A program made the translations under genes and the position numbers. A stretch of 63,953 bases of DNA, filler included, from Kipferlia bialata (taxonomy: Eukaryota): the NCBI GenBank assembly GCA_003568945.1. It is 7 parts of 7 records of this genome, joined end to end, with 100 filler letters (N's around TTAATTAATTAA, not from the genome) between each part and the next. Parts side by side here need not be neighbours in the genome. Positions count along the whole stretch, not along the records: positions 42,651 to 54,567 come from BDIP01001157.1; 6 more parts are not named here. The stretch is one strand, 5' to 3'. Shown here in pieces: positions 17,744 through 63,953 of the stretch. Under the pieces are notes generated by a model. That model worked only from the letters and a program-made list of their open reading frames with translations, did not search any database and had not been told where the DNA came from. How positions within the stretch are numbered: position 1 is the first letter of the stretch; the number at the start of each line of letters is the position of its first letter.

Positions 17744-19335
17744 AATAGTAAAGGTGGTGCCTCTCAGCTCTTCCAGCTCATCCTCAATGCATTCATCTCT
17801 CTCCCTCTCTCTCTCTATCTCTCTCTCTATCTTATATATAAGCGGTGCCTCTATCTATATATACTTATCTTACCCCTAGGTGGTGCCTCTCAGCTGTTCC
17901 AGCTCATTCTCAATGCCTTCATAGGACTGGTGGAGGATCTGTTCACAGATGAGCTCAACACACTCATTGCTGCTAGTATGACTGAAGGTACATAATTAGA
18001 CACACACACATATATATATATATATAGTATACATATACATTTATGTCATTGGACTGGTGGAGGACCTCTTCACAGACGAGCTCAACACTCTGATAGCTGC
18101 TAGCATGACTGAGGGTGAGTGTGTATATAATATACATATTATATACTATATTCTTACACACATATGTCTTCTGTCTACCCATCTCTCCCTCTCTTTCTCT
18201 CTCTCCCCCTCACCCCAGCCATCAACGAGGGTATTCAAGAGAGTACTGGACCTTCAAACGTCCCAGACGGCATGAAGGAGGTATATATATAACTATACTA
18301 ATATATGTATATATATGTGTGTGGATACATTATATATGAATAATATGTCAGTATTCATAAGTGCTATTATAGTATGTGATGGGTCTTACTTCCCAGACGG
18401 CATAAAGGAGGTATATAGCTAAGTATATAAGAATATTCTATGTGTATATAATATAATGCATACTATATAATGGAGAGAGAGACGTCCCAGACGGCATGAA
18501 GGAGGTATGACTACATGCTACTTTTATATATATATTTATGAATTGTGTTCCTTGTACTAGTATATATATATGTATATGAATACTGCCTTACCCCAGGACT
18601 TCCGCAGTCCCAACCCAGTTGTTGTCCTGGAGGACAACTACATCGCCATCCACTTCACAGCTTATGTAAGTGATTTCCACTGATGCCATATAGATGGATA
18701 TTGCGCTTTTTTGCTTGCTGCTGCTCACTCTCAGTATACATTTCTCTCTCCCCTTCCCTTACCCCCAGATCTACCCTGCCGACGAGGGTCCCACATGGTC
18801 AGGTACGCAATATCAGTATATGGGTATATATATGAATACATATACCTTTCAGTTCATTAGTCAGTGTATATATAGAGTGTCAGAGAGGTCTACCCTGCAG
18901 GTGAGGGTCCCACATGGGCAGGTACACTGCCTCTCTCTCTCTCATACATACACACATATATATGTTCTCTCTCTCCCTCTACCATCTGCCATGATGACAC
19001 AACATGATGACACAATTTCGTCATACCTACCCAATAGAACCAATGTATACACATCTACACATACATGTATATATTGCAGTGTATACCAAACCCACCCCAG
19101 CCCGTGATGCTATCATGCCCACCCCATTGCCCAACCTGGTCACCAGTGAGGACCTGCAGTTCGTGCTGTCCAACACGTACGTGATCCTCGCTCTCATACT
19201 GTTCTCTCTCATATATGAACATGAACTATCCCTCCATCTCTCTCTCTCCCCCCGACCCCAGTACACTTTCAGTGCATGTATCTCTCTCTCTCTCTCTCTC
19301 CCTACCCCCTTTACCCCAGTCTGTTTGAGTCCATG

Positions 19336-30664: not shown

Positions 30665-31054
30665 GAGAGAGAGGGATGTATCAAGTACCATTCAGTGGTA
30701 CTAAAGGTTGCGGGATGGCTCCCTGTGTATGTATCTAAGTATTAGATAGTATGTATATGTACCTGCATACCAGTATGCACTGTGTGCGAAGAAGACCTTG
30801 GAACTGACACACGGCTAGGGAGGATCCCCCACCCCCTACAATACCCATGTGGGTGTGTGGGTGGGTGTGTGTATGTGTGTGGCTGAGCCACACAGCAACA
30901 GGAGAGGAACAGAGGCTAGGACTCTATTGCCACTGGCTGTATAGAGGGTGTCACCAAGGGGGTCCAAAAACAACGAACGAGAGAATCGGTGTGACACTCT
31001 CTAACCATACACATACTGTCACCACAACGTCCGCCTGCCAACCTTCTCTAAGGC

Positions 31055-37000: not shown

Positions 37001-37926
37001 TCTACTGGAGGAGGTATGAGATATTCGTAAATACAGATAGATGAGATGTATATATTGTGAGTAGCCACGGGTTAAGGACTCTCAACTACAATCATGGAGA
37101 CAGTGTACTGCTATATAGTGAGAGATACAACTGTTTCTTTGTCTGCTCTCTTCCTGTCATGTGTTACTAACTCCAGCTGAGTTCTTTCTCGTGGGGTCCC
37201 AGAGTCCAAGCTTGCATTATGAGTGGGTCCACACAGGAGAGAATCCATTTCTGTTCCTATTTCCATTAGCTTTGACATTGGCCTTTGTGACCTGTCCCCA
37301 CTATCTATTCACCACTCACCCCAGCTGTTTCTCAACAGCAATGAAGTCGGGTACCCTGGCATAGTCACTCTAACTCGTGCACTGCAGTCACTGCCTGGCC
37401 TCAAAGAAGTATGTGATATATATTCATATATACATATACACACATGTGTATGTGGGAGTGTTCTTACCGCCACCATATCCTTGCGTTCCCAACTGCTGCT
37501 CATCCCCTCACTCTAGCTGTACCTGAACGACAACGCTATAAGCGACATTGGAGTCAAAGCACTATGCACCGTGCTCCCCAGTCTTAACTCCCTCACCCGT
37601 GTAAGTATAAGACCCTCCACAAGTAGCAATCTGACAACAACAACGTAGAACTCGAACGTGTACATAGTACTGACACAAGCTGTTCCTCGGCACCAACTGT
37701 ATCGGAGACAACGGGGCTAAGGCGCTGGCCGCCAGCCTCCCATCGCTACCTCTTCTCTCACAGGTGGGATACTGTCTCAGTACCAATAAGATTGCCACGT
37801 GTTTGCCTGAATGACATTAATATACCCTCACCTTAGCTATACCTCCGTGGCAACATCAGCATTGGGCATATTGGAGCCAGTGCCATTCGTGAGGCTGTTC
37901 CGGATGGGTGCTCCGTCCTTTTCTGA
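31055..37926 (+). CDS. Multidomain protein: degenerate HSPA12-like Hsp70 nucleotide-binding domain + armadillo repeats + RI-like LRRs
   Basis: VVGLDVDDTSMCVA, WVITVPSHWSDSTVRVWLDAAHDSGI, CIVVVGGETSVD, GILLTGPLFARPHM and EGAAALYG follow the order of Hsp70/HSPA12 motifs. ARM units (ALGCLGNLA, AIAALGNIA, GAGVLQNMA) follow, then four LRRs (e.g. LYLNDNAISDIGVKAL). The NBD-ARM and ARM-LRR junctions I checked are in frame. Confidence 0.72.
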
Positions 37927-38169
37927 TAGAATCTTTCTTGGGAACTTGTGGTGAACAGAACATGCATACTATAATGGACCATTATTAATGGTGACTTGAA
38001 TGGATTAGATGTCTGCTGGGTCTTTACACTTCTGCGGTGTAGTCATAGAGTCATAACTCTATTCACATAGTTCCTCAGAGTATGATATGTCAGTTTTCGT
38101 TGCTCAATGTTGTTCAACTACGATATATGGGCCATCTATGAAAGTAATGTGAATTTGGCTCGAAAGCCT

Positions 38170-39228
38170 TCATGTTATGAAGGGGGTCCACTCTCCCTCC
38201 ATAGCCTCTGTCTCCAGAGAGGAATGGTCTGACTGCACCCCATCCCTCTGTGCAGCTGATGTCCGACTCCCACGGGACATTGTAGAGAGCCCCCCGATCC
38301 CTGCCCCCTCCGCAGCAATGTCCACACCAACATCACTCTTGGTCTCAGAGGAGGCCTTTGAAGCAGCTCGGACTGGAATCTCAGTGGGACTCTCCCTCTG
38401 AGTCCTAAGGGCATGGGCAGTAGCCAGTCTCTCTGTCAGTGGAGTATCAAGAATGCTACTGATGTTCTTTGAGACCCTCTTTGAGACAGGATTGCATCCC
38501 AGGTTGATCTAGGGTTAGTAGCTGTACATCCAAGGCAAAATGTATTGGCATTGTTATGACAGAGAGAGATAGGAATCAGAGCTGTACCTCGGTCAGGTAC
38601 GGCATATATGGGAGAGCTCCTGCTAACACCCTGGCACCGTTCGTACAGATACCATTCCCTAGGATGTCTAGCTGACTGTCAGACCCAATGTTGTCTAGCG
38701 AGCATCTGGAGATATCTAATTCTTGGGACTGCTACTCACCAGCTCTAGATGGTTCAATGACTTTAGGCCGGTCGCCAGTGCGGTTGCGGCCCGGTGGTCG
38801 ATTCCAGCTGACTTTACATACAGCTTCAAGTGAGGAAGGCGGTGTATTTGGGAGTCTCTAACACAATATCGGAAAGATGGATACATACTCTCTTGAGGTT
38901 TGGTAAGTGTGGCAAGGCCGAAGCTAGTGCGACAAACCCCTGGCTGCAAAGGTCGCAACCGTTCAGGTTCAGCTGAAGGTGATGATAGTTCCAAAGGAAG
39001 CACGAGAGTATGCGTCCCACTCTGACATAACAAAGCATATGCTCCCCTAGAATACCGACCTTAAGACAGTCTTATGTCTCATACCTCTGTCCCACCATCC
39101 TTTCTGCACACCTTGATTCCGGCCACCACCCAGTGCCCCACTGTGTTCCCAAACATATGGGGTGCCTGACCCCAGGCACTGTCCAGCACCTCTGAGTAGT
39201 ACACCTCCCACTCCACCTCTGACCACAT
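38170..39228 (-). CDS. RI-like leucine-rich repeat protein, 5 visible exons (start may lie further upstream)
   Basis: LNLNGCDLCSQGFVALASALPHLPNLKR|LYVKSAGIDHRAATALATGLKSLNHLEL|LDILGNGICTNGARVLAGALPYMPYLTE|INLGCNPV...; the LRR exons are 84 nt and phase 0. Confidence 0.82.
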
Positions 39229-39733
39229 CCCAAGGAGTTGGGAACAGGAGATGTGCGATGGGCCTAATATAGAAATAGTTTCAAAACCCTGCGTACTCAG
39301 GACAGAGTAGAAGACCTCATAGAGGAGTGTTTCTTATATATTGACACTGGTTCATTGTCCAGCGCATGTTGGTTCCTATCTCTACCGTAAGTGACATCCC
39401 TGCGACCCTTTGTCAAGGCCTCCGTATTACGATATATACGGGATACAGGACATGGATACGTCGTATCATACGAAGTACTATCTCACCCTGTCACTTACAT
39501 TCTTTCTTTGCTTTTGAGGTACTGTTGATACTGTTAGCTTGACACAATAGATACCTTCTTAGGTGGCCAACTACTACCCAACAGTACACCACTAGATGCC
39601 GGCTCACTAAAAGATTGCTCGAGAGAGCTCATAATGGGGAGACACCGGCTGAAATACAGACTCCTTTTATACAAGTGCCGTACAATTACGTTCTTCGACA
39701 ACAAGAGAGGTTCCTAGAGTACAACTCCACACC

Positions 39734-40786
39734 ATGCCAAGTGTCGATGTGCACATACACGACATCCCTGACGTCGTTGATGCCATTGTGCGAATCGGAG
39801 ATAACCAAGCACTTGTGATAGGAGGAAACAAAATTACTGAGGCAGAGTGGGGGTGTGTTAGGGTATCAGTTGTACTCACACTCCTAAGTGATGGTACCAT
39901 TGAGAGTGAGACCCCCGTGCACTGTCCGGTTCCCATGTCTACTAGAGAGTTCTCCACATGTGCCGTCGGTAACGATGTGTATGTGTATGGGGGACGACAC
40001 AAATTGTGTGGAGCGCGTATACTCAATGACATGTATCTATACACAACAGACACTGGTGAGTGGAGACTAGTGCCTAAGAGAGGGTTATGGCCAGCAGCTC
40101 TGGTATTTCTCACAACCTTCTCCTTGGAGGACTCGTTGTACATGTGTGGAACTGGACGTACATCTCCAAATGCGGTTGAATTCTGGAGGTATACGTCACT
40201 GACTGGATGGCACAGAGTCACACCACCAGAGGGGAAGATACCAAACCTTGTTGACAGTTGTGTCACAGCAGGCAACGTAGCCTACTTCATCCACGAATAT
40301 CGGCGTATGACTCATACTATGAGTACATTCACACTGCCTTCTCGATTTTACTGTCAAATTGACTGTCAAATTGACACAGACTCTGTGACAGAGTTTCGTT
40401 TCGAGAATGCGTTCCTGTCATCTTTGGTACAGCCAGCTGTTGCTTATGGGAGGAGCATTATTGTCACAATTAGGAAGTACAGTCCCATTGGTTTGCCAGA
40501 ATACACTGACCATGTGTATGATATGGTGTCAGGTGAGTGGGTGCACTCCCAACAGTCTGTATGGACGGACCTCTGGAGGCAGTCAAGCTCAAATACGCAC
40601 ACATGCTGCATGTGTGACACATGCATGATATGGCCTAGCACTGTGTGGTGTGTGGCGGATTACCGTTATTCTTGCGAAGAAGCCAAGCGACCCCCGAAGG
40701 TAATGGCTTGGCAGTTAGCGCAGGAGAGGTGGGAAGACTGGGGTGAAGGGATGATATGGTGGATGGATGATATGACCATGGGGTAG
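39734..40786 (+). CDS. Intronless Kelch-type beta-propeller protein (350 aa)
   Basis: STREFSTCAVGNDVYVYGG...LNDMYLYTTDTGEW and VYDMVSGEW are Kelch-like motifs. Confidence 0.8.
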   Translation: MPSVDVHIHDIPDVVDAIVRIGDNQALVIGGNKITEAEWGCVRVSVVLTLLSDGTIESETPVHCPVPMSTREFSTCAVGNDVYVYGGRHKLCGARILNDMYLYTTDTGEWRLVPKRGLWPAALVFLTTFSLEDSLYMCGTGRTSPNAVEFWRYTSLTGWHRVTPPEGKIPNLVDSCVTAGNVAYFIHEYRRMTHTMSTFTLPSRFYCQIDCQIDTDSVTEFRFENAFLSSLVQPAVAYGRSIIVTIRKYSPIGLPEYTDHVYDMVSGEWVHSQQSVWTDLWRQSSSNTHTCCMCDTCMIWPSTVWCVADYRYSCEEAKRPPKVMAWQLAQERWEDWGEGMIWWMDDMTMG

Positions 40787-41525
40787 ACAATTTCTTCCGT
40801 ATACATAGATACAGTTTGCATGTTAGGAACAAATGCATCGCAATGCCCACAGTGACTGTGACAGACTGTCACTGACAGTCCTCCACGTCAAATCTTCTTT
40901 GCTGTTGGAAAAATCATGTTGGATTCCAAGTTGGAGTACATTATACTAGTACTCAATTGACAAGCACTAATGCACATACTTCCGGAGTTCTGTATGGCAG
41001 GCATATGTATTTGCTCCATGATACTGTTGTGGGCCACAACTGGTGTGGACTCCACTATGTGGCATTACTGTTGGGACAAATATTACTTCAACATTTATCT
41101 TCCACATGATACCATCACCCCCACCGGTGACACCACCCAGTCCCTATCACTAGCAGATGTCTTGACCTACACAGACAAGCTTGCGTCTGACAGAGGTTGG
41201 AACATCAAGATATAGGAGTGAATGACATTCACGCCTTCCATACTGTCTCCAGCATCCTCTGATAGAGTAGACAAGTGGATAAGGTCCCCACTAAACACAG
41301 TCCCATTCACAGTGATGGACACGGGGCAGTGACACTCCTTTTGGAGATCAGACAACACTATCACAGGAACCAGACAGAGGTACACCCTCTCTCGGTACTG
41401 GAAGGGGGGTACATATTCCTCTGTAGTCAACTGGCGCAAAGGACATTGACCATCCCTTGACAATAACCCATGCATACGCATGAGTTCTGGACACACACAG
41501 TGTCTGTCTCTCTTACACACTGTGT

Positions 41526-42450
41526 CTAGTCGTCACTCTGGCTGAGCAGACCCAGCTCCTCCTCCTCAATGGTGAGGCCTAGGTGTGAGTATGAATGTTC
41601 AGGGGTACTACAGGCTAATACATAGAGGGGCATGTGGAATAGAGACCTATACCTGGTACAGATGCATGGGCCATGGCCTCCTGGTCTCTCTCTCTCTCTC
41701 TCTCCCTCTCTCTCTCCCTCTCTCTCTCCATCTGTCTGCTGCGGTGGTTGGTGGAGGGGTGGTCAATCACCATCTCACACCTGGGGGGTCAGGGGCATAG
41801 ACATATGCATATACCATTATTATGAGATGGATATATATATATATATATATACACATACCTCTGGAGTGATGAGATTGACCCCTGTGCCAGTACCCCTCTC
41901 TCCTGGCAGTGCCTCACAAGGGCAGACCAGCCTGGGATCAGAGATGAGAGGGAGAGAGAGAGAGAGGGGGACAGTGCCTCACAAGGGCAGACCAGCCTGG
42001 GATCAATACGCACATATATGTATATATATGGATAGATAGAGAGAGATACATAATGCAACCCACCTGCGTCTCTGCTGAGCACCCTTGCGTTACCAAGGAC
42101 AATGCATGCAAAGCGACCCCTGGTGAGGGCAACATTCATCCTGGGGTGAGGTGGAATAGCCTCGGAGTGTATTGGGTATGTATACTAGTGTATATATGTA
42201 CCTTCTGAGGTCACTGAGGAACCCGATCCCCTGGCTGCCCGTCCTGACACAGGAGAGCACAATCACATCCTTCTCACGGCCTGGGGGGTGGGCTTTGCAA
42301 CATATACGTGTAGAAGTACACCAATAGAAGTATGTAGTGTAGGATATACATATCCAACAGTAGCAGGGTATCTATGAGTGCGTACCCTGGAAGGAGTCCA
42401 CGGATGCAATCTCCATATCGACAAGAGCGGTGGGTCCTAGGAGACCAGCC
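41526..42450 (-). CDS. UPF1/Sen1-like (DNA2/NAM7) superfamily 1 helicase, C-terminal exons only
   Basis: EIASVDSFQG|REKDVIVLSCVRTGSQGIGFLSDLRR|MNVALTRGRFACIVLGNARVL...WSALVRHCQERGVLAQG covers motifs V and VI, and reads closest to UPF1. Confidence 0.88.
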
Positions 42451-42550: not shown

Positions 42551-42650
42551 NNNNNNNNNNNNNNNNNNNNNNNNNNNNNNNNNNNNNNNNNNNNTTAATT
42601 AATTAANNNNNNNNNNNNNNNNNNNNNNNNNNNNNNNNNNNNNNNNNNNN
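42551..42650. other. Artificial contig-joining spacer
   Basis: N44-TTAATTAATTAA-N44. Confidence 0.97.
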
Positions 42651-42743
42651 GACTGTCCCACCTGTTCCCAGTGTCATACACGGACATAGAGGTATATAAC
42701 TATCATTACACAAGTATCATTATACACTGATATAGAAATATAG

Positions 42744-42787
<44 letters not shown>

Positions 42788-42795
42788 AACCCTAG

Positions 42796-44773
42796 GTCTA
42801 CTGTGACCTGTATGAGTACAACACGGTGTCAGGTGGACTTAGGAGACAGGAGAGGGTGTCGGGGGATGACTACTCGATAGAGTTGTCTGCAGCAGTGGGA
42901 GAGTACTCAGCGGATGAGTCATACTCCAAGGTATATATACTGTCTATATGTATGTATATATATAGAGAGAGAGACAGGAGAGGGTGTCAGGGGATGACTA
43001 CTCGATAGAGCTAAGTGCCGCAACTGGGGCATACAGTGCTAGTGAGTCATACTCTAAGGTATATTTATGTATGTGGCATACAGTGCTAGTGAGTCATACT
43101 CCAAGGTATAAGTGTATGTGATATGTATGGTATTTACCGGTCGTATTCTAATCCGAGGTTGTCGTATCTATGTTTCTACTGTCACTGATACAGATGGGGC
43201 AGACTACATACACACACACACTCCATGTATATGTATGTGTGTGTACTAACCCTAGATCGTAGTCCCTGGTGCCACCTCCACCTTCACACATGGGACAGAC
43301 TACTCTCTCTCTCTCTCTCTTGCTCTCTTTATCTCTCTCTCTATGTATATATACTCACTCTAGGTTGTGATATCCGGTGCCACTCCTACGACCAGTACAG
43401 ATGGGGCAGACTACACCATATACGCAGGGACAACGAGCTCGGTGTACCTGGCACTGCTAGATGAGTACGTATACTACATACACCTAAACATTTGTAACTA
43501 TATATGTAAACATATGTATATATACGCACTACTGGACGAGTGAGTATATATAGACACTCTGTCCCTATAGCCTATGTATCTATACATATGCAATCTTTCT
43601 AATATATATATTGTATATAGACGCAGAGGCTTACTCTAGATACGGCATCAGTATTCTAGCCGATACCTCTGCCTCAGAGTACCCCCTGGTCATATATATA
43701 CTGTATACAGTACATGATTGTACTATATATAAACACACTACTACACACTCACTATATAGGTATGGTATCAGCATCCTAGCCGACACCTCTGCCTCAGAGG
43801 ACACCCTGGTCACAGGCACTCTGGATGTGACACTGGACAGCAGAGAGACATCGCAGGTACTAGAGATAAGAATGTATATCTATTGAACTCTATGTGTACC
43901 TGTATATTCACTAACTGTTTACGCTTTATCACCTCCCACCCCAGGTCGGGTCCAGGGTCACAGATATATATCATATGTACATACGTGTACTATATATATA
44001 TATATATATATATTTATCATTTATATATCCTATGCATTACTCACCCCAGGTCGGGTCCAGGGTCACCGACATGATCGACACAGACGGGGTGAGTGTGTAC
44101 ATATATATACTTATATGTATATGCGTATATATACTATGTATATACATGTATTGTCATACATACCGTGTCACAGACGTGATCGACACAGACGGGGTGGGTG
44201 GTGGGTATATTTCTCAGTCAGTGTGTATATATAGTTCACTTCCTGATATCCAATAACATAGTCCTTGTCTCTGAGGCATCTCTCCCTCTCTCCCCCCCCC
44301 CTCTCTCTCTACCTATATTCCTCACATCAGATCTCCTATAACATAGCCACTGCCCTTGTCTCCGAGGCATCCTTTGAGACAGACACAGTCCGGATCAGTC
44401 ATGAGGTATGGGTAAATATACAATACTATTGTACTGATACTTGATTTAATATTCATAGTGAATATTGCATTGCAAACATGAGTGTGCCTTTACCCCAGGT
44501 CCGCTTTGACGGGTACTCTATGCTGACATACGAGGGCACCAACACATTCATGACTGGGACTGAAGGTACTCTAATATTGATATAGACATTTGATTCTTTA
44601 TACATGTGGAGGGTACCTCTCTGTCTCTCTCTCTCTCTCTCTCCCTAGACCCTTATTTCAGGCTATCTTGTCCTCCCCTGTGAGTTGAATATACTAACCT
44701 CTCTCTCTCCCTCTCACTCTCCCTAGACCCTTATTTTCAGGCTATCTAGTCTTACCCTTCGAGTTGATTTTGC

Positions 44774-44813
<40 letters not shown>

Positions 44814-47800
44814 ATACCCTTACTTCAGGCTATCTTGTCCTCCCATTTGAGTTGAATGTTGCTGGGGAGTATACTGCCACTCTCTCTCTGCCTGTGTCCG
44901 AGTCCGAGACTTCGCTGGGGCCAAGCTCCTACTCATTCTCAGTGAGTATATATATACATATATATATTTATACATATATATATATATATAGTCACAGCTC
45001 ATATGTACTTTCTTTATTTGCATTTATATACTGAATACTATTCCTGAGTCCGATGCCCTGGGCCAAGCTCCTACTCATTCTCGGTGAGTATATATATTCC
45101 TAGTCTTAGTGTATATAGTATATACTATGTATGTGTATATACTATAGTGTGTTCCTTGTCTGACTCCGATGAATTCATACACTTAGTATGAAATGCTATT
45201 TACTCTCACATACAAATTATACTAATGTATAGGTCAGTGTGCAGCCCGGTATCACCATCAGCACTGTAGAGCTAGGGGGTGACCCAGACCCAGTGGTGGG
45301 AGGGGCCACTCTGCCAGTACTAAACAGCGAGGTATATAGAGTATGAATATGTGTATATATGTGTATATGATATGAATTTTGTACATATATATTGTGACCC
45401 AGACCCAGTGGTGGGAGGGGCAACACTCCCAGTGCTCAATAGTGAGGTACTGTATATACAGTGTATATACACTGTATTTATGTATATACATGTATATAGT
45501 GTAGTGAATGTATATATGTGGTGATTCCGACCCTGTGGGGTGTCTAAAGACAAAGAGTGTAGTGTAGTATACATGTTTCAATATATGTCATCTGTACCCT
45601 CTCTCTCTCTCTCTCTTACCCTAGAGCTCTAGTGTGACAGTGTCTGGCACCACCACCTATGCCCCCTCCGTACCCTCATGGGTGTCATCCACTGCTACAG
45701 AGTTCCTAACCCTGTCTGCCGCCATGCCATACGGCATAGTGCTGTCAGGTAATACATGTATATATACATATATCGTGTATCTTTGTATATAGTGCGCGTG
45801 TATATGTACAAGTGCATTGAGTTCGTAACCCTGTCTGCCGCCATGCCATATGGGATAGTATTGTCAGGTATATCTAACCTATACATAACTATCCCATGTA
45901 TCATGTGTATGATTTATATGTATGTTCAAGTGTATCCATTGGGATCGTGTCTATGTCTACCTCCATGTCCTATGGCATAGTGTCATTAGGTACTGAGTAC
46001 ACCGTTCAGTGTCTGTATATATAGTGCACTTCTCACCCCAGGCTACGATACCGACATGAACATCACCCCCAACGACTACTCTGGTGTAGTATATATATAT
46101 GTCATATGTGTAATATATATATATATTTGTAAATGGATATATTAGTCATATAGTGCACTTACACTAGGGTATGATACAGACATGAACATCACCCCCAACG
46201 ACTACTCTGGTGTCTCAGCCCCCTCCCTGACAGTGGCCAATGCACTATCCACCTCTGCCTCCATGCTAGACTACGCGATAGATGAGGCGGGTCGTATCAG
46301 AGCCACAGTGGCGTCATACCTCCCATACTGCAGTGAGAGTGCACCCTTGACACTGGCCTTAGATGTGTCATCTGCCTCGGAGGTATGTATATTTTTTTTT
46401 TCTCTCTCTCTCTCTGTTTCTGCATTGGAGGTTAGGATCTCTCATATTCACACACACACACACACTCTCTCTCTATATATACATATGTGGATGGCGCTGG
46501 AACTCGATTTGTCTGTGTGAGCATCCCATTCACTCTCTATCCCCTGTCTGTTCTCTCTCTCTCTCTCCCCTCCCTCTCTATTGTTCTAACCATAGGTGTA
46601 TGTATGTGTCCCCTTCACATTATATCCACTGTCTGCTGCTGACATGCTATCAACAGCCACGCAGGAGGGGTACACATCGTGGTACAGACCTGACACATGG
46701 TGAGTGGTTATATTTACTTAATTTTAATATAGTCATGTATACATTATATAGTATACATAGAGAGAGAGAGACACATCGTGGCACAGACCTGACACATGGT
46801 GAGTGATATATACATTATATATATATATATATGTGGGTGTGATACAGTATACACAGAGAGATAGAGAGGAGAGGTACACATCATGACACGTTGTGAGTGT
46901 CATTACTACATATATATGTAGTAGATACACTATAGTACATGGTTTCCGTGTTCTCACTCCAAGGTCTGCTGGTGTCTACACGGGTGGCACCGTCCACTCC
47001 CCAGGGTCCAGTATATCAGACAGCATTACACCTGTGTACGGAGAGACCCACGGCCTCACACCCCTAGAGATGGGAGTAGCATCCACCCTCTCAGACACTG
47101 TACTAGCACACCTCACCCTATCGACAGACACCACTGTAGACGCTGACGGTGTCTCTCTCAGATACTACAGGGTGGATACAACCACTCTAGAGATTGAGTA
47201 CTATGAGCTACCCTTGCCTGTGAGTACATTGAGCTCCGATCTAGACACCTTGTCTGTTATTGATGTGGCCTGTACCGACGCCGGGGTGGACTTTAGCCAT
47301 GGGACTGATACTGGTAGTGACAGTGATACATACACTGGGTACCCACTGAGGTGCATAGAGCAGCTGCTGGACAGTGTGCACTGGGCCAACGGTGGCACAA
47401 TATGGCACTCACTTGAGGTATATATATATATATATATATATAGATAGATATATATAGATAGATATTTAGATATGATACATAGAGCAGCTGTTGGACAGTG
47501 TTACACTCCTTTGAGTACATGTATATTATCAGACTTCTTAGTGTGTCCTCCCTCATCTCTAGATATCTGTGTGACTTGCCCCGTATGTCCATACCATGTA
47601 TATATACATATATACATGGTATAGTGTAGCCATACGTATCTAACTCTAGATCTCTGTATGGCTAGCCCCCTCCGCTACTGAGTCATTAGAGTACAGACCA
47701 GTCTTGGACAGTGACCCAACATCCACAGAGACCTCTCTCCAGTACGCATCGATAGGCCTAGCACCCTATAGTGCTACAGAGGTCCTGTACACACAGCTCT

Positions 47801-49463
47801 ACTACACAGTAGATACCCTACCTGACACTGTGAGTCTACTGGATCTAGCCACTGCCTTTGTAGACCTTGGTGTATCCGACGCTGATGGTAACATACATAG
47901 CTATGACGCCACTGGAGTCAGTGGTACCATCTATCAGTACATGGATATCGAGACCATATCCCCCCTGACACTGTCCCTCTCTGATACGTGTACGGGGAGT
48001 GACCTTGATAGTGAGTACTACGTATCAGTGGACATACTCACCGGAGGGGGTACCTTCAACCTAGAGTGCGTCACTCTATCGGGTGTGTTCACTGGCTTGG
48101 TGCCTATCTCTGTCACATTACGCGGCCCCAGTGCCTCTCGCACTCTGCTATCAGTCTACTACACCCCTGTCCTGTCTCCAGTTCTACTGGACGCAGCGAC
48201 TGGGGTGCTGATAGAGAGTGAGAGTACTACAGCGACCGAGGAGAGCACAGTGTCGACAGATGTGACGTATGGCTCGCTGCATGAGTTCTCGTTCGATACA
48301 GTGCTTACGGAGGACCAGGCTGATGTGTTTATAGCGGGTGGCATACCCTACACCCACAGCCTGTTCTCCTCTGAGCCTGTGATACCCTACCAGACATTCG
48401 ACCCACCCACTCTGGCACCTATTGGGTTGAATATCACGATAGGTGTGTATATGTATATGGATGTATATGTATATATATATATATATACATTTATTTATAT
48501 GTACCCTACCAGACACTCGACCCGCCCACACTGTCGCCAGTGGGGTTAAACATAACCATAGGTGTGTGTGTATCTGTATACGCATACGTCATTATGATGT
48601 GACTGTATATATGTATGTGTTGTGTCTGATCCCAGGCACGCAGGAGTTCTGCACGTCCTCGTACCCTAGCGATGCAGTGGAGTCAGACAGACAGAGTATA
48701 GTGGAGAGTGCACTACTATCCAGTGTTGACACATCAGGTAGAGCATCAAATATATATATATATATATATGAATGTATTATATATATATATAGTATAATAG
48801 TAACCCTCAGGTGATGGGGAGAGTGATACGCGGGACACAACCTTCAGTCTCACTGGGGTATCCGCCACACACGGTACAGTCACACTGCTATCGAGTGAGG
48901 TCACATACACTGTAGATTCCTCCTTACCATACACATGCGGGTACTACGGCGGTACAGTCGAGTACTCACTCCCCTACTCCCCTATACTCGACAAGGGTAT
49001 ATCAGGGGATGAGGTGGTTGTGGAGCTAGAGTACAACAGTGACACGGTGTACAGGTTGATAATGCCCATATCCATACAGACAGTGTATGCAGACGCCCAG
49101 TGGTGGACATACACGAAGCGAGTGGTGGTGTGGACTATAATAGTGTTCATACTTGTCACAGCCTGTGTGACTGGCCTTGTGTTGCGTGTAAGGAGTGTGG
49201 CTGAGAGGAGAAGGAGGCAGCGAGAGAGAGAGCTCAAGCTAGAGGCTAGGGAAAGGGCGTTAAGGGTGGGTAGGGAGGGTACTATGGGAGATGCGAGGGA
49301 GATGGCTGTGATAGTGGAGGGTATTAGGACAAGCACCCACTTTAGACGGTCAGTCTCCATGCGGTCTCACTCCGTGGCGCACTCGCATACCCCAGTAGTC
49401 TATGCCTCGCCAGTCATACTGCCCAATAGCACATTCGATGATGAGGGGAGGGGGTATAGGTAG
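42796..49463 (+). CDS. Type I single-pass membrane/surface protein, 5' partial, Ser/Thr/Asp/Tyr-rich ectodomain, many exons
   Basis: Exons give a beta-strand-like acidic ectodomain, then the TM segment VVVWTIIVFILVTACVTGLVL and a basic stop-transfer RVRSVAERRRRQ. Stop at 49463. Confidence 0.72.
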
Positions 49464-49748: not shown

Positions 49749-51915
49749 TCACTTCACCAGGGTTAACACGGCTGATAGTAGCCTTGACCTGTGGAGACTC
49801 TTGGCAATGGTGTCTCTCTCTCTCTCTCCCTCCTTCTTCAAGTGCTGCTGGACTAGATTGCCTAGGAAGAGGCCGCAGAGTGATGCTCTGACTGTCTCGG
49901 AAGAGAGGGGGAGAGTGGACCTGGGATGAAATAGTACGTAGCTACATATGCTAGGTTCAAGTACAAATGCTAGGTAAAAGTACATATACGTATGTATATA
50001 TATATCATAGTGCTCTGACTGTCTCTGAAGAGAGGAGGAGAGTGGACCTGAGGTTATATACTTCATGGGTACTATACAAACACCTAATTCCTCTATATAT
50101 GTATACTATACTAAACACTCATACCCTTGTCCTCCTCCTTTGTGCATGTGACACTGCACTGTGTGTGTATGCACACACAGACACAGTGTAGACAGGGGTA
50201 TCTGTCTCTCTCTCTCCCTGTTTCTCTCTCTGATGCTGAAGGTCTTCCTCAACCTCTGTCTCTACCTCTTGTTCCCGACTTAGCCGCTCCTCTGCCCTTC
50301 TTGCACCCTCGACTCCATCCTGACAATGTCAGTATATATGTACATACACACACATACATATACACATAAATATACATACACACACGTGCTATGGTCAACT
50401 CATTCTAGGGGTGTCAGTATGCATATACTAATCCATATATGGGAGATAGTATCATATGTAGGAATACATCCGGGATGTCATCAACTATATACACTATGTA
50501 CATAGGCATTCCTGTTTACAAATTCTATATATATACATAGATACCAGAATCCCAATTTGCCCTTTGTCCTGACAATGTAAGTGTGTGTAACAGTACCGTC
50601 TGTATACCCACACACAATTAGAACTACCCTCGTTAATACACTAAGAACATGTAGATACATACCTTCGTGTACCCCTTGCACACCGATGTCACGACAAGCA
50701 TGGCACCATGACCTAAAGGGTCAGAAGCATTTCACAGAATCTACACGAGAGAATACGCCAATCGAAACTCAGAAGATAATGCAGAGCCCAATGTATGTGT
50801 TCCCATACCTGCCAAGAACTCCACAGCCAACGGTGTGCTCTGGATAACACCAGTTGGGTCTTCTCTCTCTACGGCCCCATCCCTATCAGAATCTCTGTCC
50901 TCTCTCTCTCTCTCTGCCTCCTGTTGGACACAGGCATCCTCAGTCTCTAGCTCTACAGTGAGAGGTGTACAAATATGAGTATGCATATGCCATTCCACGC
51001 ATATTCTACACATAAACTAGTATACGCACCTATCATAAGTGGTCTCAGTATGAGTGTTGTAGCATGGGCTGTCAGGACACACCTCATGTAGGGTATATAT
51101 ACATATGTACACTAATACATATGAACCAGTAGATGTACATTACCTATCATCAAGGGCCTCAGTATGAGTGTCGTGCCATGGGCAGTCAGGACATATATGT
51201 CACTGTACTCTACACCACTGGTGGCAGAGCTAGTGGCCCTTGTCCAAGACTCGGCAATGGGTGTGTGGCCAACAATGACCATACCGTTCTAGGGGGTAAG
51301 TGGATACATACTGATACATACAATATAATGAATGTCAATATATATGGATCTGAGCAATGATAGTACAACATGGTCTATATACACTATCCCCATGCACTGT
51401 CTATTGTGACAATCTCTCTCTATACCTGATTGATACAGGTACAATATGGTCTCTCCACCCCATCCCCATGCACTGTCTCCCTTCCACTGTCCAGTGTGTC
51501 TATGATATATATATATATATCAATATATATATATATGAGTACCTGGTTAATAGACGTGCAATAGGGTCTCTCCATGTTGTCTCCATGCACTGTCTCCCTT
51601 CCACTGTCCAGTGTGTCTATGACAGAGGCAGAGACTGGGGCATGTCTCTGGAACAGACTGGTCCTATTGATTAGTGTATACACTATACATGCATATACAT
51701 ATATATATATGTAACTGTCCAGTGTGTCTATGACAGAGGCAGAGACAATAGCCTCACGTCTAAAGAGACTGGTCCTAGTGATAAGCATAGAGTATGTGTA
51801 TACTATGAATATGGGTATATATAAATGTAGAGAGAGAGTATCAATGGCAGAGGCAGAGAGCATGCCTCTGGAAGAGAGTGGTCCTGGCGTCAATATGGAT
51901 ATACATATATATATG

Positions 51916-53437: not shown

Positions 53438-54486
53438 CAACACTGACCTGGCATCACACCGTATATACACACGATATATATCAATATAGAATGTAAATAT
53501 AGAATATAATTACCTTGTATCATGGCCACTGCCACATCCAAATGGGTCTGTTGCATATATACTGAAACTGTCTCTATCCAGAGTGTAAATATATATATAT
53601 ACTACTTATACTGACTGCTCACCTAGTATCATTTCCACTGCCACATCCAGTGACCTAGCCGCCGCTGTCCTCTGGTGGCTGATGGGTTAGTATCAAGAGT
53701 ATATACATATATATAATTATAGTATAAGAATAATATACAAATATAAATATATAATTATATTACATATGTAGTATTTGTTCAGCAGCTGTCCTCTGGTGGC
53801 TGGGGTTGGTTGTATTATGTATTATCATAATTAAATACATATATATATATATAGTATAGATAGACCGTATAGATAACAAGGCTGGGGTGGGTGTATTATG
53901 AATTATCATAAGAGCATATACATATATATAATTATAGTTTAGATAGACCGTATAGATAACACGTCCTAGCCGCAGCTGTCCTCTGGTGGCTGGGGTGGGT
54001 GTATTATGTATATAAATATATAGTACAGAGGGCATAAATATAATACATACAGTATACTTAGGTGATAGCAAAGGCAACACCTGTCCTCTGGTGGCTGGGG
54101 TGAGCAGTGTATGAATACTGAATATATGCTCATGTTATTGACAGGATAGATGGTGTATATAGTATATATAGTATATATTAATACAGAAACTAAAGATTAG
54201 CACAAAGTGGTGGTGGGTAGATTCAATATGTGTAAATGCAACATATATACATATACATATATATTGATGCATATACATGTGTAAATGCAACATATATACA
54301 TATACATATATTTTGATGCATAACATTTATATATATACATATCTATCATATCCTTACCTCTGCCCCCATAGCAATAGGATGCTCAGCATGTATGGCAGGA
54401 TGTGTTCTAGACCGCCAGGAGCATCTGGCTCTCTCTCTCTCTCCCTCTCACCATCTCTGCCACACCCAGTGCAGGCAAGGGCTACA
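49749..54486 (-). CDS. Hypothetical multi-exon helical protein, 5' partial
   Basis: GC-richer exon islands with GT..AG ends (AVALQCLLETADRDFR, FTTLCRAVLPDLVALANTHLL, ...LLSAVLTLVK*) lie among AT-rich introns. The exact exon choice is ambiguous because of duplicated exon fragments. Confidence 0.58.
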
Positions 54487-54726: not shown

Positions 54727-57700
54727 ACTTCCCCTCGTCCATCCACACTATGCTAGCCACCAACGTGGATGCGTCCTGCCTCATGCAGATGATCATATCT
54801 CGCAAGGCCACTCTCTCCATGTGTCAGAGAGAGACCCACAACGCAGCCCTCTCTACACTCAAGGGGCCCCAGCCCGGACACCGCAACGCACCCAAGACCC
54901 GGCGCTTCACTGCCATTGGGATTGACCCAGCCGCCCTGGAGGCCAAGGTGGGTGTATCGATACACTGTAGTAGTACATATGTATATATATCTATACCTAT
55001 ACCCATGCTGACACTAGGTGGGGGCTGCCCAGGCTGCGTCTAACAGGGTGGCCAGGGAGAAGAAGCTGGGCATGCGCAGGCACCAGCTCTCCCAGGCAGG
55101 GGAGAGGGACTCGTCCTGGTCCCACTCTGCGCCTGGTCAGAGGGGCAGCAGGAACAGCCAGGGGTTCAGCGTGGACTCTGAGTCTGTGGTGAGGACCCCA
55201 GGGGGCATGAGGGTGGGTGTCCTCCGCAACGCCCAGCCCGACCCGTCCCCCCTGGTCCCGTCTCTGTCCCACGTCAATGTGTCACCGCAGGAGGGGGGGT
55301 ACCCCACCCTGGTCCCCCTCCTGATCCCTGCCCCTAGACGTGATGCCTCAGACCATGTACTGAGTGCCACCACTCAGATGCGGCGGGTGGCTGCCTCAAA
55401 GGTCAGGCAGCGCATTGGCACCTTCATGGAGAGTGTGAGTGTCAGGGTGGCAGGGTCATCCATATCAGGGTCCTCTCGCATATCACACGTGTCTGCGTCC
55501 CCAGACGACTCCTCAACGAGGGGGAGTAATGACTTCAGGCCCATACTGCGAGGACCTAACCTCAAGAAACCCATGTCCCCCCTGGGTGTGCCCAGGGCTG
55601 TGTCGTGGGGGGTGTCGAGCGAGGTCAGTGCCTCAGGGGTGTCAGTGCCACACAACAGCAACTCATTCTCCCATGGGCAGGACAGAGAGGACGACGCCTC
55701 TGAGGGCACTGCCATGGGGGTCGACTTCTGCCTCAGAGACTCCAGTCTGACTGAGGGCGGGTTGGGGTTCGCTCTCTCCTCCACCGGCCCCCTCCCCCCT
55801 CCCCTCCCCTCTGCCCCCTCTGAGGGTATGGGTATGGGTGTGGGTGTGGGTTTGGATGGGGTGGATGGCCGCAGGAGGCCCCCACCGCAGAGGGGCTGGC
55901 AGTACCAGAGTGGCAGGACACTCCAGTTAGAGCGCATTGCGGCAGGGACGGGCGAGACTGCGAGTCTGTCTGTGTCCACCCAGTCCCCCATGGGGTTCAG
56001 ATTCCCTGAGTCCTCAGAGCCACCTGTTGTCAGGAGTGTGCGCAGTCTGTATGACACGCTCAGCCCAGTGGCGGGGAAGGTATGGGCCTAGAGGGTCTCT
56101 TCTATACACTATACACTCCATACCCCCCCCCCCTCCCCTCTCACCCCAGTCCCACACCCTGTCCGACATACTGGGGCAGGGCCACCCGTCCCACTTAAAG
56201 CAGAGCTGGCTGAGTAGGCACTACAGGGCCATATACATATGGCTGGTCACTGAGCTGAGGTTGATATGTGACTTTGCCCCAGGTAGGGTCAAGGGGTCTC
56301 TGGGCCGGTGGCTCACCCTGACCCTGTCCCACTCCACCAAGGAGCCCGGGATGGTGTCAAAGGTGGGTGGATGTTAATATACACGCATATAACGTGTATC
56401 GTACATACCCCCCCCCCCCAATATTGAACCTGTAACTGATATCCAGAAGCGTATCCACATGCTGGTCTATGGGCTTCTGCTAGCCATCCTGACCACCGAC
56501 CTTGTGGGCTGGGCCGTGATACCCACATCCGATGGCCTGGGCACCATATACAGTGTCCTCAGAGACAACCACCTGGCTCTGGTGCTCAGCCTCAGCCTCG
56601 TGTTCGACTTTGTGTGCGAGGTGTGAGGTTATATATATATATGTATGTATGAGTAGTTGCTGTTGACTGGCAAGTGTATAACTTGTGTTTCTGAGTACCC
56701 TTCCTGACCCCAGACCACCTATCTGATGAGTCTCCAGGCTGCTCGAAGCTCCCTGGGAGTCAAGCAGCAACGACACATCCGGCGCATGGTGATAGCCCAG
56801 TGCAGTGGGCTGATGCCCATCCTGCAGTTCACTGTGATCCAGGTCCTGGGTGTGCAGCTGATACTGGAGAGCATGGTGGACGAGGGGGGCAGTCCGGAGT
56901 ATGGGTACGACTGGTCCTTCATGCTGCCCCTCGGCCTCCACCTAGTGCTACACCTCATGATGCACTCTGTGTACAGGAAGCACAGGCTCTCCATGGGCTT
57001 CTGGCTAGTGCTGGCCGCTGTCTTCTATGTCGTGGTCCCCTCTGTCGCCATGTGTGTCCTACTGGTAGTGACTGACCTGGAGGTGTCCACCAAGGCCAAG
57101 GTGGTGGTGGCCATACACTCCAGTGTCCATGGGCTGGGCTTTGCCGTGCTGCTGTGCTGTCTGTTTGGATATACCAGTGGGATGGGTCTCAGGCACAGAC
57201 ACGTGTTCCTGGGTGCCATCATGGAGATCAGCCATGCCAGACGCATCCTGAGCATCGTGGTCCCCCCCTCGGCACTGGATGTGTTCCTGAGGCACAGGTT
57301 CAGGGGCATAGCCAGCTCTGAGTTCTATGGGGTCATGGACCAGGTGCTCAGGGACAGACCCATACACCCAGACACGGCATGGGAGGGGAGCGGCCTGGCA
57401 GTCGACACACTCGACAGACTGTACATTCAGTGCCTGGTGCGGCTAGACGAGCCCCAGCCACCAGAGCCTGTGGCCGCTAAGATGTCTCCCTGTCCCTCCT
57501 TCAAGGGTTCTATAGAGGGCCAGATCAAGCAGTGGTACCCACAGATCGTCTACAGAGGGGGTGCAGACTCGGGGAAGTTCTCCAAGCCACCCTCCCGTCC
57601 GTTTGGGGCCTCTGTCTCCAAGGGTCTGGTGCGTTCTCTCTCCTCCATCCCTCTGGGCAGTGCTGTGCCGGGGGACGACTCCCATATGGACCTCCCTGGC

Positions 57701-58621
57701 AGCACCCCCCTGCACTCCTACACAGCCATCAAGGAGCACGTGACCAGCTTCCTGAGGGAGGACTACACCTCGTCTGCCCCCTCTAGTATCATGACTGTGT
57801 CCCCTGTCACCCTGTGCCTGGCCCTCGACATCGTCAACTTCACCCTGCTGTCCCAGCACGTGTCGAGTGGGGAGCTGGTGGCCACGCTGACATGCCTCTT
57901 CCAGGAGTTTGACTCGCACCTGCCCAGGTACAATGCCACCAAGGTCAAGACCGTGGGGGATGCCTACGAAGCCATGGTCCCTGTCAACCTGACATCACCC
58001 TCCGGCGAGCCTGCCTCCCATGGACAGTTAGTACATGCCGCGCTAGGCCTAGTGAGGATGGCCTTTGACATGAGGGACACCACCCATAGGATAGCGGCAG
58101 AGCTGGGGTACGACCTGGATGTACGCATTGGACTGTCCCTGGGGCCCTGCTATGGAGCCATCCTGTCCACCTCCAGCATCTCCTACGATACCTTTGGCCT
58201 AGGCCCTGCTGTGGCTAGGAGGCTGGAGCACATTGCAGGGACTGGGGAGGTGGTTGCCTCTCGCACCCTCCTCGATCTCCTTGAGGGGGAGGGAGGTGTG
58301 CGGGTGGGCAGGGTGGTGCGCGAGTCCCACCAGGCAGATGACGTGGAGAAGAGGCGGGCCGTGCATGCCGACTCCCTCCTCCAGCACATGTACGTGGCCC
58401 AGGCCATGGACTGTCAGAGGGAGGACGTCGAGGGGCAGATGCAGAGAGACACCACTCTGTTTGCATCCCACGTGTGCTCAATTCCAGAGGCAGATGACAC
58501 AGGTGTGGACATGGATGGAGAGGACACCCCCAGGGGGGACAGCCTGTCTCGACTCCGTGCCCACTACACATCTCTGTCTACAGTTATTGGCGTCTGTGTG
58601 GAGGCCGTGGATAGGCGGTAG
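54727..58621 (+). CDS. Multi-pass membrane class III adenylate/guanylate cyclase, 5' partial
   Basis: A hydrophobic TM block is followed by LALDIVNFTLLS...LFQEFD...KVKTVGDAYEAM...VRIGLSLGP...YDTFG...ARRLE. Confidence 0.88.
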
Positions 58622-60339: not shown

Positions 60340-60345
60340 TGGTGG

Positions 60346-60393
<48 letters not shown>

Positions 60394-60462
60394 GACATGA
60401 ATATATATGTGGGTGGAAGAGGGAATCAGTAACAGGGGAACGCATATGCAGACCCATCCTAC

Positions 60463-63400: not shown

Positions 63401-63894
63401 GGGGGTAGATAGATGAAACAGCGACGGTACTTCGGGAGAAGCCAAAGGGTAGATGAGAAAGAGTATTACAATGTATGGTACCCACCTGAGCACACATCCA
63501 AACAGAGAAAGAATATGAATATACACACATATACACACCCCCACCCACCTCCCCTTGATGCTGTTGAGTCTCTTGTATGCCGGTCTGAAGTCATGGCCCC
63601 ACTCACTGATACAGTGGGCCTGGGGGATGAGGGGGCGAAGAATACATATATATGTATGTATATCTCAGATACTGATACAGTGGGCCTGGGGGGAGACAGG
63701 AGGTCTACATAGTAGAGACAGTGGGATGATACTGATACAGTACCGCATACACACAGGTAAGGATATATATATATACATGATTTGTATATCATATATCGTA
63801 CACATATACCCCATACCTCATCCACTGCCACCATGGCCAGTCTGCCAGAGGCATGCAGCCTATCTAGGATGTGGCCGGCAGAGGCCTCAATGCC
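60463..63894 (-). CDS. recQ: RecQ-family DNA helicase, partial at both ends
   Basis: VAVDE|AHCISEWGHDFRPAY, AVTATAT, SFDRRNIRY, GIIYV, YHA|GL, VVATIAFGMGVDKADVR|FVVHWDMPKSVEAYYQ|ESGRAGRDG. Confidence 0.93.
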
Positions 63895-63953
63895 CTGGGG
63901 TGAGGGTGGTTAGGAAATGGGGGGGGGGGGGGGGGCCCCCCTCCTCTTTTATA

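What the first reader, a model, noticed from the sequence alone, without database searches (positions are those of the whole stretch)
45281..45446. Exon shadow with an identical anchor followed by 7/7 silent substitutions up to the donor site
Seen: the exon end 45281-45331 (DPDPVVGGATLPVLNSE|GT) recurs at 45396-45446 with its own GT donor but no acceptor. The first 8 codons are identical. Then GCC/GCA, ACT/ACA, CTG/CTC, GTA/GTG, CTA/CTC, AAC/AAT and AGC/AGT differ, all silently. The same polarity (identity on the truncated side, silent divergence toward the splice site) appears at about 45700/45820 and 46042/46169. Inference: this fits one-ended homologous invasion into a diverged template with non-homologous resolution, or conversion tracts between exon and shadow.
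Basis: partly seen in the sequence, partly recalled or inferred. Interest (0 to 1): 0.85.

Follow-up and report, generated by a model that had tools for sequence, protein, structure and literature searches.

The report
Fossil exon ends fill protist introns
In the free-living protist Kipferlia bialata, many introns hold a copy of the neighbouring exon's end that differs from it mostly at silent positions, likely scars of DNA repair that copied from long-diverged versions of the same gene.

Summary
A DNA-run contig spans the focal exon and shadow with no differences; an RNA-type contig skips the shadow. In 7 gene models, 51 in-register shadows lie in 37 of 76 gap-free introns: 25 donor-type, 26 acceptor-type; null 0 of 242. 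Pooled dN/dS is 0.15 (0.10-0.22), with 87 silent and 43 replacement codons, which rejects 'born identical, then neutral decay'. Polarity is real (0 of 1200 simulations): mismatches rise from 0.08 to 0.29 per base about 33 nt from the truncated end. The 16 long nearest shadows sit 106-128 nt from their exon whatever their length. Best explanation (inferred, 0.5): a staggered break in an exon primes copying from a diverged homologue across the splice site, then end-joins, leaving the old exon end in the intron. No donor sequence was found and the fixed geometry is unexplained. Closest known: lancelet 'mirages' and one-sided invasion repair. A genome-wide silent-diverged form was not found in my searches.

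The parts
42653..49463 (+). Host gene KIPB_005093 (1069 aa, partial at its start, 16 exons; Ser/Thr-rich, one likely membrane span near the C-terminus; no Pfam family)
45233..45331 (+). Exon 9 of the model, the expressed copy
   Evidence: RNA-type contig X2 record 9 lies on 45233-45329 with 0 other letters
45279..45306 (+). 28-nt anchor in the exon, identical to 45394-45421
45307..45331 (+). Silent-diverged exon end (7 silent differences, 0 replacements against the shadow); inferred to be the newly copied tract
45332..45393 (+). Used GT donor and 62-nt AT-rich filler; unlike the intron that follows the shadow
45394..45446 (+). Shadow: 53-nt copy of the exon end inside the intron, no acceptor in front; inferred to be the old exon end
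   Evidence: spanned by DNA contig X1 record 2 (45000-46082), skipped by X2 record 9
45447..45624 (+). Shadow's own GT and the rest of the intron up to the AG of exon 10
45819..45867 (+). Donor-type shadow of exon 10 (offset 119; 4 silent, 1 replacement)
45954..45989 (+). Second, more decayed shadow of exon 10 (offset 241; 1 silent, 5 replacement)
46042..46087 (+). Acceptor-type shadow of exon 11 (offset -126; 35 identical nt at the truncated end)
42971..43058 (+). Longest shadow (88 nt, offset 128; 8 silent including two TCN/AGT serine switches, 3 replacement; change-point at 40 nt)
17754..17796 (+). Acceptor-type shadow of exon 8 of the LBP/BPI-family gene KIPB_005082 (3 silent, 0 replacement)
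18046..18114 (+). Donor-type shadow of the same exon (9 silent, 0 replacement); the two shadows together rebuild the whole exon with a 4-nt overlap
51426..51505 (-). Donor-type shadow in minus-strand gene C (80 nt, offset 117; 40 identical nt, then 7 silent and 3 replacement)
   Evidence: gene model is my own prediction
51714..51774 (-). Acceptor-type shadow of the same exon (61 nt, offset -111; 33 identical nt, then 4 silent and 3 replacement)

Best explanation
The shadow is a real intronic copy of the exon end, skipped in the assembled transcript, and is likely the old exon end left behind when a DNA break was repaired by copying from a long-diverged copy of the same gene. Inferred steps: (1) A break inside an exon leaves staggered 3' ends that overlap by up to about 30-40 nt. 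(2) One end invades a diverged homologue (an allele from outcrossing or hybridisation, or a homeologue since lost), which can pair only in exons because introns are unalignable. (3) It copies about 80-90 nt, through the rest of the exon, the splice site and into the homologue's intron. (4) It falls off and is joined to the other end by microhomology-type end joining instead of annealing. The overlap ends up in both copies (the identical anchor, a target-site duplication). The new tract becomes the working exon end. The old end, with its splice site, sits about 120 nt away in the intron. Both versions evolved as coding sequence before the event, so they differ mostly at silent sites. The mirror event on the other broken end gives acceptor-type shadows. 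Events that do not cross a splice site would mostly break the frame and be lost. Repeats of the event stack shadows and lengthen introns.
For: Shown: present in DNA contigs at flat depth 370-413 and skipped in the RNA-type contig. dN/dS 0.153, bootstrap 0.10-0.22; 87 silent and 43 replacement codons; wrong frames 21/112 and 9/123; 0 stops in 508 shadow codons. A silent share of 0.67 against 0.38-0.46 expected for 'born identical' (binomial p 1e-6 to 3e-11, codons treated as independent); long shadows 0.707 against a maximum of 0.62 in 900 simulations. Holds for the two annotated genes alone (0.143) and without the focal pair (0.165). Change-point at 31-35 nt, rate 0.077 before and 0.285 after. 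The truncated edge is sharp: 25% identity beyond it at all codon positions. In short shadows the excess identity runs on into the intron and ends 40-45 nt from the truncated end (0.58 against 0.36 null at 30-35 nt; Mann-Whitney p 0.033), as a fixed-length target-site duplication predicts. Donor and acceptor types are equally common (25 and 26), which fits a DNA and not an RNA template. Edges carry mirror-image microsatellites: (GA)n at 5 of 25 donor edges against 0.8% background, (TC)n at 11 of 26 acceptor edges against 13%. Enzymes fit: metamonads lack Ku-type end joining, the fornicates examined lack Rad51A and have Dmc1 paralogues (PMC8516963 passages); K. bialata has Spo11, Dmc1 and PolQ entries (its supplement rows); Dmc1-type residues stabilise mismatched triplets (PMC6719624 abstract and section 17).
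Against: No donor was found: no second protein version for either annotated gene, no variant letters on 44850-47400 at 85% likeness (contigs drop rare variants and would miss copies under 85%), nothing in metagenomes. The divergence needed is very large for alleles: 22 of 46 four-fold sites differ beyond 30 nt. I know no pathway that gives a 33-nt overlap and a unit of 119.5 +/- 6 nt. Some cases do not fit: exon 8 of KIPB_005082 has no long anchor (first mismatches at 4 and 5 nt, even divergence); several RecQ-gene shadows are identical for only 17-25 nt in all and then unalike; at exon 9 of KIPB_005082 the farther copy is perfect and the nearer has 2 replacements. Only 16 of 22 shadows show the polarity one by one. 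Which copy is the new one is not shown. Five of the seven gene models are my own predictions without RNA check.
Confidence: 0.5

Rival explanations
1. Offset crossover between two diverged haplotypes: haplotype A is kept through the exon and part of its intron and is joined about 120 nt 'too early' to haplotype B in mid-exon; heteroduplex repair near the junction makes the anchor. The shadow is then the incoming sequence and flanking markers are exchanged.
For: Explains silent divergence, the sharp edge, the two mirror types and the A-B-A-like series at exon 8 of the focal gene (44662 like the exon, 44741 with 4 silent codons). In 4 of 6 exons with shadows on both sides the two shadows overlap by 4-20 nt, as if one event switched out and back.
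Against: The anchor needs an extra step; the run-on of identity into the intron in short shadows follows more simply from a staggered cut. Implies about two illegitimate crossovers per kilobase of gene.
Confidence: 0.17
2. Same-allele tandem duplications in which both copies stayed translated for a long time (mutually exclusive or alternative exon ends), so both collected only silent changes; one copy later lost its other splice site, and conversion kept part of it identical.
For: Gives low dN/dS with no outside donor. Tandem exon duplication with mutually exclusive use is common (PMC9013439 abstract). One shadow covers 33 of 34 nt of its exon and keeps AG and GT (exon 11 of KIPB_005082).
Against: Nearly all shadows are half exons with one splice site and a sharp edge. 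Offsets are spread over all frames (18, 13, 10). The RNA-type contig shows one path. Gives no reason for a constant unit or for identity at the truncated end.
Confidence: 0.12
3. Lancelet-type 'mirages': ordinary tandem duplications of an exon-intron boundary that decay neutrally, the silent bias coming from selection on the exon alone.
For: Same outward form (PMC3087553 passages). Probably true for a few short units whose intron part is still alike, such as 13233-13374 and 53857/53940. Shadows under 33 nt show 17 silent and 14 replacement codons.
Against: Rejected for the pooled set and for long shadows by calculation and simulation. Predicts neither polarity nor silent saturation next to 28-40 identical bases.
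Confidence: 0.08
4. After a same-allele duplication, the exon copy alone is driven to differ (targeted hypermutation filtered by selection, or selection for silent changes that prevent mis-splicing or deletion between the repeats).
For: Needs no donor; would give silent-only, near-saturated differences close to the splice site.
Against: A change in the shadow would serve as well and costs nothing. No clear mutational signature: 83 transitions, 83 transversions, third bases change both ways. TCN/AGT serine switches need two steps. The boundary tracks the truncated end, not the splice site.
Confidence: 0.06
5. Assembly artefact: two haplotype paths laid in tandem by the short-read assembler; the anchor would be the word overlap.
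For: The published genome was built with SPAdes from short reads and is called diploid (PMC5874029). The change-point near 33 nt equals a SPAdes default word size (recalled, not from a call), and the unit is close to a read length.
Against: Logan's separate contigs reproduce 45000-46082 as one piece with 0 differences at depth 398, and 46583-46802 likewise; 4 pairs are bridged by one contig, a fifth narrowly. Anchors vary from 2 to 40 nt and carry substitutions. No second haplotype is seen. Limits: run X1 may be the source of the assembly, these are contigs and not raw reads, and only 2.55 kb was laid.
Confidence: 0.03

Closest known systems
'Mirage' duplications of exon-intron boundaries in lancelets (Adh3, globins BflGb6 and BflGb9; PMC3087553, passages read)
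   Same: Tandem copies of a 5' or 3' exon boundary inside the intron, keeping AG or GT, apparently ignored by splicing; units of 150-160 bp in the globins.
   Different: Mirage units are 81-100% alike as whole repeats and form minisatellite clusters at a few loci. Here the intron part is mostly unalike, the exon part differs at silent sites, identity is confined to about 33 nt at the truncated end, long units are about 120 nt, and about half of the introns in the genes studied carry one.
One-sided invasion / aborted synthesis-dependent strand annealing finished by end joining (Puchta 1998, seen only as a reference-list entry in PMC11930290; content recalled)
   Same: One junction made by homology, the other without; copying from a homologous template into a break.
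   Different: Recalled from transgene assays with matching donors. No fixed overlap or tract length, and no natural genome-wide record with coding-diverged donors, is known to me.
Repair-mediated duplications in vertebrates (Pace et al. 2009, PMC2671141; abstract and section 7 read)
   Same: Short nearby duplications with microhomology, filler and sometimes target-site duplications of 4-21 nt; can copy exons and splice sites.
   Different: The donor is nearby DNA of the same genome, so the copies start identical; about a thousand cases in a human genome, with no tie to exon ends and no reported silent bias in what I read.
Tandem exon duplication with mutually exclusive splicing (PMC9013439 abstract) and intron birth by duplication (Hellsten et al. 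2011, PMC3265369 abstract)
   Same: Local duplication that includes splice signals.
   Different: Those keep whole exons in use or create a new intron. Here half exons lie unused in an existing intron.
Integrative elements that bring a replacement gene end, such as phage 21 and e14 in Escherichia coli icd (recalled, no call)
   Same: The working gene end is replaced by a silently different one and the old end is displaced downstream.
   Different: Those are integrase-driven insertions of large mobile elements at one site; here the inserts are about 120 nt, share no sequence between sites and encode nothing.

Membership tests
Mirage minisatellites | Tandem copy spans an exon-intron boundary and keeps the splice signal | tested here: met
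   51 of 63 hits are in register with GT or AG
Mirage minisatellites | Copies are not used in splicing | tested here: met
   RNA-type contig skips the shadows in 44850-47400; one contig, minor isoforms not visible
Mirage minisatellites | Whole unit, intron part included, is 81-100% alike | tested here: not met
   Intron side of long shadows is at null level (excess 0.09 of 12 nt); only 1 of 25 donor-type pairs exceeds the null 95th percentile, 11 of 26 acceptor-type pairs do
Mirage minisatellites | Copy-number instability between haplotypes or cells | not testable with these tools
   Only contigs of one sample covered the stretch
One-sided invasion repair from a diverged homologue | One in-register homologous junction and one non-homologous junction | tested here: met
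   Change-point inside the exon in register; sharp unrelated edge with microsatellites
One-sided invasion repair from a diverged homologue | Donor sequence identified | tested here: inconclusive
   None found; whole genome not held, other isolates not available
One-sided invasion repair from a diverged homologue | Arises at a double-strand break | not testable with these tools
   Needs an experiment; Spo11, Dmc1 and PolQ entries exist for this species
Mutually exclusive tandem exons | Both copies are whole exons with acceptor and donor | tested here: not met
   One near-whole copy among 51; the focal shadow has no AG within 30 nt
Mutually exclusive tandem exons | Both copies appear in transcripts | tested here: inconclusive
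   One path in the RNA-type contig; raw reads not available
Repair-mediated duplication from nearby DNA | Copies start identical and then diverge without coding bias in the spare copy | tested here: not met
   Silent share 0.67-0.71 against 0.34-0.46 expected

The most novel reading that the evidence does not exclude
Kipferlia runs a stereotyped recombination pathway, with a cut staggered by about 33 nt and a unit of about 120 nt, that renews exon ends from strongly diverged relatives and parks the old ends in introns. Tens of thousands of introns would then hold a layered fossil record of extinct or unsampled alleles, readable from one genome, and this process would be the main engine of intron growth in the lineage.
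Probability: 0.3. Interest if true: 0.92.

Novelty: new variant of a known kind. Interest (0 to 1): 0.78.

Why it matters
Intronic sequence that carries the signature of past protein-coding selection, at about half of the introns in the genes studied, is unexpected. If the model holds, it is evidence of recombination between very divergent lineages in a free-living relative of Giardia, a group whose sexual life is debated and whose repair kit is unusual (no Ku, no Rad51A, Dmc1 only). It would make the outcome of Dmc1-only repair between mismatched sequences measurable from sequence alone. It also offers a cause for intron lengthening: median 263 nt with a shadow, 93 nt without. In practice, the shadows are decoy splice sites that can mislead gene prediction: my own predictor took one for an exon start.

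Tried and rejected
Whole-genome scan: no genome is held for this window, so all counts come from one 64-kb window. Search for a donor or paralogue: only the window's own proteins came back, nothing among shorter proteins, nothing in two metagenome scans. Runs X3 and X4, from another sample, laid nothing; the tool says this proves nothing. No listed holder is on record as RNA; X2 is a guess, but its contig is joined exactly at GT-AG exon bounds. A second laying of runs on the LBP/BPI gene region gave no result, so read support covers 44850-47400 only and heterozygosity elsewhere is untested. Polarity as an alignment artefact: rejected by simulation. Fixed word-size overlap from the assembler: anchors vary and independent contigs span the junctions. 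Diversity-generating retroelement-like adenine mutagenesis: the changes are not confined to A. Use of shadows by splicing through a cryptic acceptor: no consistent AG before long donor-type shadows. Rows dropped: 12 of 63 hits were left out of dN/dS because they were not in register with GT/AG or ended more than 30 nt from the site; one intron with an N gap was left out of the length comparison. Pfam gave nothing for the host protein. Literature: 10 searches found no description of this pattern in Kipferlia or of a silent-diverged, polar form elsewhere; the genome paper's main text has 0 occurrences of 'duplicat'; its supplements were not opened, and most subscription papers are outside the library.

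Full report
Origin. A stretch of the host gene retrieves one protein, KIPB_005093 of Kipferlia bialata, at 100% identity; a second gene retrieves KIPB_005082, an LBP/BPI/CETP-family protein. The window is a row of contigs separated by N linkers. The genome paper describes a SPAdes assembly of short reads, 51 Mb, 124,912 GU-AG introns and two k-mer peaks read as diploidy (PMC5874029; parts 1-2 of 6 and passages read). It does not mention duplications in its main text. No whole genome was available to me.

The observation. Exon 9 of the host gene is 45233-45331. Its last 53 nt recur at 45394-45446, 115 nt on, followed by GT. The first 28 nt are identical, then seven of nine codons differ, all silently. 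The 62 nt between are AT-rich and there is no AG in the 30 nt before the shadow. The two other pairs named are present; one has a single replacement near its edge.

Is it real? Contigs of DNA run X1 give one piece over 45000-46082 with no other letters and no gaps at depth 398, like neighbouring pieces (370-413); the break at 46058-46208 falls on a 35-nt perfect repeat, as expected. A 4279-nt contig of run X2 lies on six exons of the gene with no other letters and skips every shadow. Limits: X1 may be the source of the assembly, X2 is RNA by guess, contigs drop rare variants, and only 2.55 kb was laid.

How common? I built seven gene models: two from the annotated proteins and five with a small predictor trained on them plus hand fixes (the predictor recovered most exons of a training gene, which is no independent test). 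Comparing each exon with its neighbouring introns, blind to frame, gave 63 hits in 77 introns; 0 of 242 pairs from different genes gave one. 51 hits are in register with a GT (25) or an AG (26); 12 were dropped. 37 of 76 gap-free introns carry one; their median length is 263 nt against 93 nt. A RecQ-like helicase gene has six, so it is not a surface-protein feature. The genes were chosen partly because repeats showed near them; other genes in the window, at about 1-9 kb and 31-38 kb, gave no such repeats, so one half is an upper estimate for the genome.

Silent bias. Pooled dN/dS is 0.153 (bootstrap 0.10-0.22), with 87 silent and 43 replacement codons; 104 of 166 mismatches are at third positions. 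Shifted frames give 21/112 and 9/123, and none of 508 shadow codons is a stop. If the copies were born identical and only the exon were under selection, the silent share should be 0.38-0.46; it is 0.67. For the 17 shadows of 33 nt or more it is 0.707, above all 900 simulations. The result holds in the annotated genes alone (0.143), in the RNA-checked exons (0.111, 8 pairs) and without the focal pair (0.165). So both versions were protein-coding while they diverged. Shadows under 33 nt are weaker: 17 silent, 14 replacement. Nearest shadows give 0.14 and farther ones 0.31 (10 pairs), as later decay would give.

Geometry. Mismatches lie towards the splice site: 44 versus 98, mean position 0.594; none of 3 x 400 simulations of the same pipeline with even divergence reaches it. 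16 of 22 shadows show it singly. The pooled change-point is at 31-35 nt from the truncated end, with 0.077 mismatches per base before and 0.285 after; seven long shadows have their own change-point at 28-40 nt. Beyond 30 nt, 22 of 46 four-fold sites differ. The edge is sharp: 25% identity beyond it. The 16 nearest shadows of 33-88 nt all sit 106-128 nt from their exon (119.5 +/- 6); the 25 shorter ones range from 57 to 201. In short shadows identity runs on across the splice site and fades 40-45 nt from the truncated end, while long shadows show none on the intron side (p 0.033). (GA)n lies before 5 of 25 donor-type edges (0.8% background) and (TC)n after 11 of 26 acceptor-type edges (13%), the same repeat on the strand that points away from the shadow.

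Mechanism (inferred). These facts fit a break with staggered 3' ends inside an exon. One end primes on a diverged homologue, copies about 80-90 nt across the splice site into an intron that matches nothing at home, and is end-joined to the other end. The overlap becomes the anchor, the new tract the working exon end, the old end the shadow. Copies from an identical template would give perfect 120-nt repeats that could collapse again, which may be why the diverged ones remain; I saw no perfect unit of that size in the window. The enzyme set is compatible: no Ku or DNA-PKcs in metamonads, no Rad51A but Dmc1 paralogues in the fornicates examined (PMC8516963, passages); Spo11, Dmc1, Fen1 and PolQ entries for K. 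bialata (its supplementary table rows; one supplement file had no text); Dmc1-type residues tolerate mismatched triplets (PMC6719624, abstract and section 17). This is compatibility, not proof.

Against it. No donor was found in protein databases, in the laid contigs or in metagenomes. The divergence is more like that between species than between alleles. The 33-nt and 120-nt sizes match no pathway I can name. Exon 8 of KIPB_005082 has evenly spread silent differences on both sides and its two shadows rebuild the whole exon with a 4-nt overlap, which looks more like one whole-exon insertion; 4 of 6 two-sided exons overlap by 4-20 nt. At one exon the farther copy is the better match. The direction of replacement is not shown.

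Comparison. Lancelet mirages share the outward form but are homogeneous repeats, intron part included (PMC3087553, passages); the defining whole-unit likeness is not met here. Vertebrate repair-mediated duplications copy nearby DNA and start identical (PMC2671141, abstract and section 7). One-sided invasion is the pathway it works like; I saw that work only as a reference entry and rely on recall. Tandem exon duplication and intron birth by duplication (abstracts) keep or create functional units, unlike here. Ten paper searches found no account of this pattern. Earlier notes of this scan gave leads from other genomes only.

Verdict. Real, widespread in this window, statistically strong and not explained by ordinary duplication. 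I file it as a new variant of a known kind (boundary duplications in introns; works like one-sided invasion repair), interest 0.78, mechanism 0.5.

Noticed in passing
window 61816-61866 (minus strand): In the RecQ-like gene the exon that encodes FVVHWDMPKSVEAYYQ is preceded by AT where AG is expected: a non-canonical acceptor, an assembly error or a different splice.
   Followed up: no
window 60340-63953 (minus strand): RecQ-like helicase gene (DEAH motif 'VDEAHCISEWGHDFRP'; family named from recall), 17 modelled exons, six short nearly perfect shadows of 15-22 nt.
   Followed up: partly
window 53621-54101: At least four stacked acceptor-type shadows before one exon of gene C, two sharing a silent GCT against the exon's GCG, with duplicated intron pieces between them.
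   Followed up: partly
window 13233-13374: Two to three tandem units of about 60 nt that include the intron end and 14 nt of exon, intron part still alike: looks like an ordinary young mirage-type duplication.
   Followed up: partly
window 26349-26504: In-frame duplication with a 105-nt offset inside a long acidic low-complexity ORF (ATATLDSVKGEDK / ATATLDSVQGEEM), alike for about 45 nt and then unrelated; might be the same process surviving inside an exon.
   Followed up: partly
window 42551-42650 and five other places: Artificial 100-nt linkers (44 N, a 12-nt AT spacer, 44 N) join separate contigs; a 983-N gap lies at 19994-20976 inside KIPB_005082, whose annotated protein bridges it using what looks like an acceptor-type shadow at 19947-19979.
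   Followed up: partly
window 31000-41000: A block without the TA/CT-rich introns and without shadows in the repeat scan; holds an intronless 377-aa kelch-like ORF at 39653-40786 and a leucine-rich-repeat-like gene near 37300-37930 (named by eye).
   Followed up: no
window 14398-14935: Small three-exon gene with two CxxCxxCxxxC motifs, a likely 2[4Fe-4S] ferredoxin (read by eye).
   Followed up: no
window 41526-42450 (minus strand): C-terminal exons of a UPF1/SEN1-like helicase gene ('REKDVIIVLSCVR'-type and 'MNVALTRGR' motifs; family from recall) with one perfect 25-nt acceptor-type shadow.
   Followed up: partly
window 56708-58621: 637-aa ORF with membrane-like segments and a 'KVKTVGDAYEA' motif typical of adenylyl/guanylyl cyclases (family from recall).
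   Followed up: no
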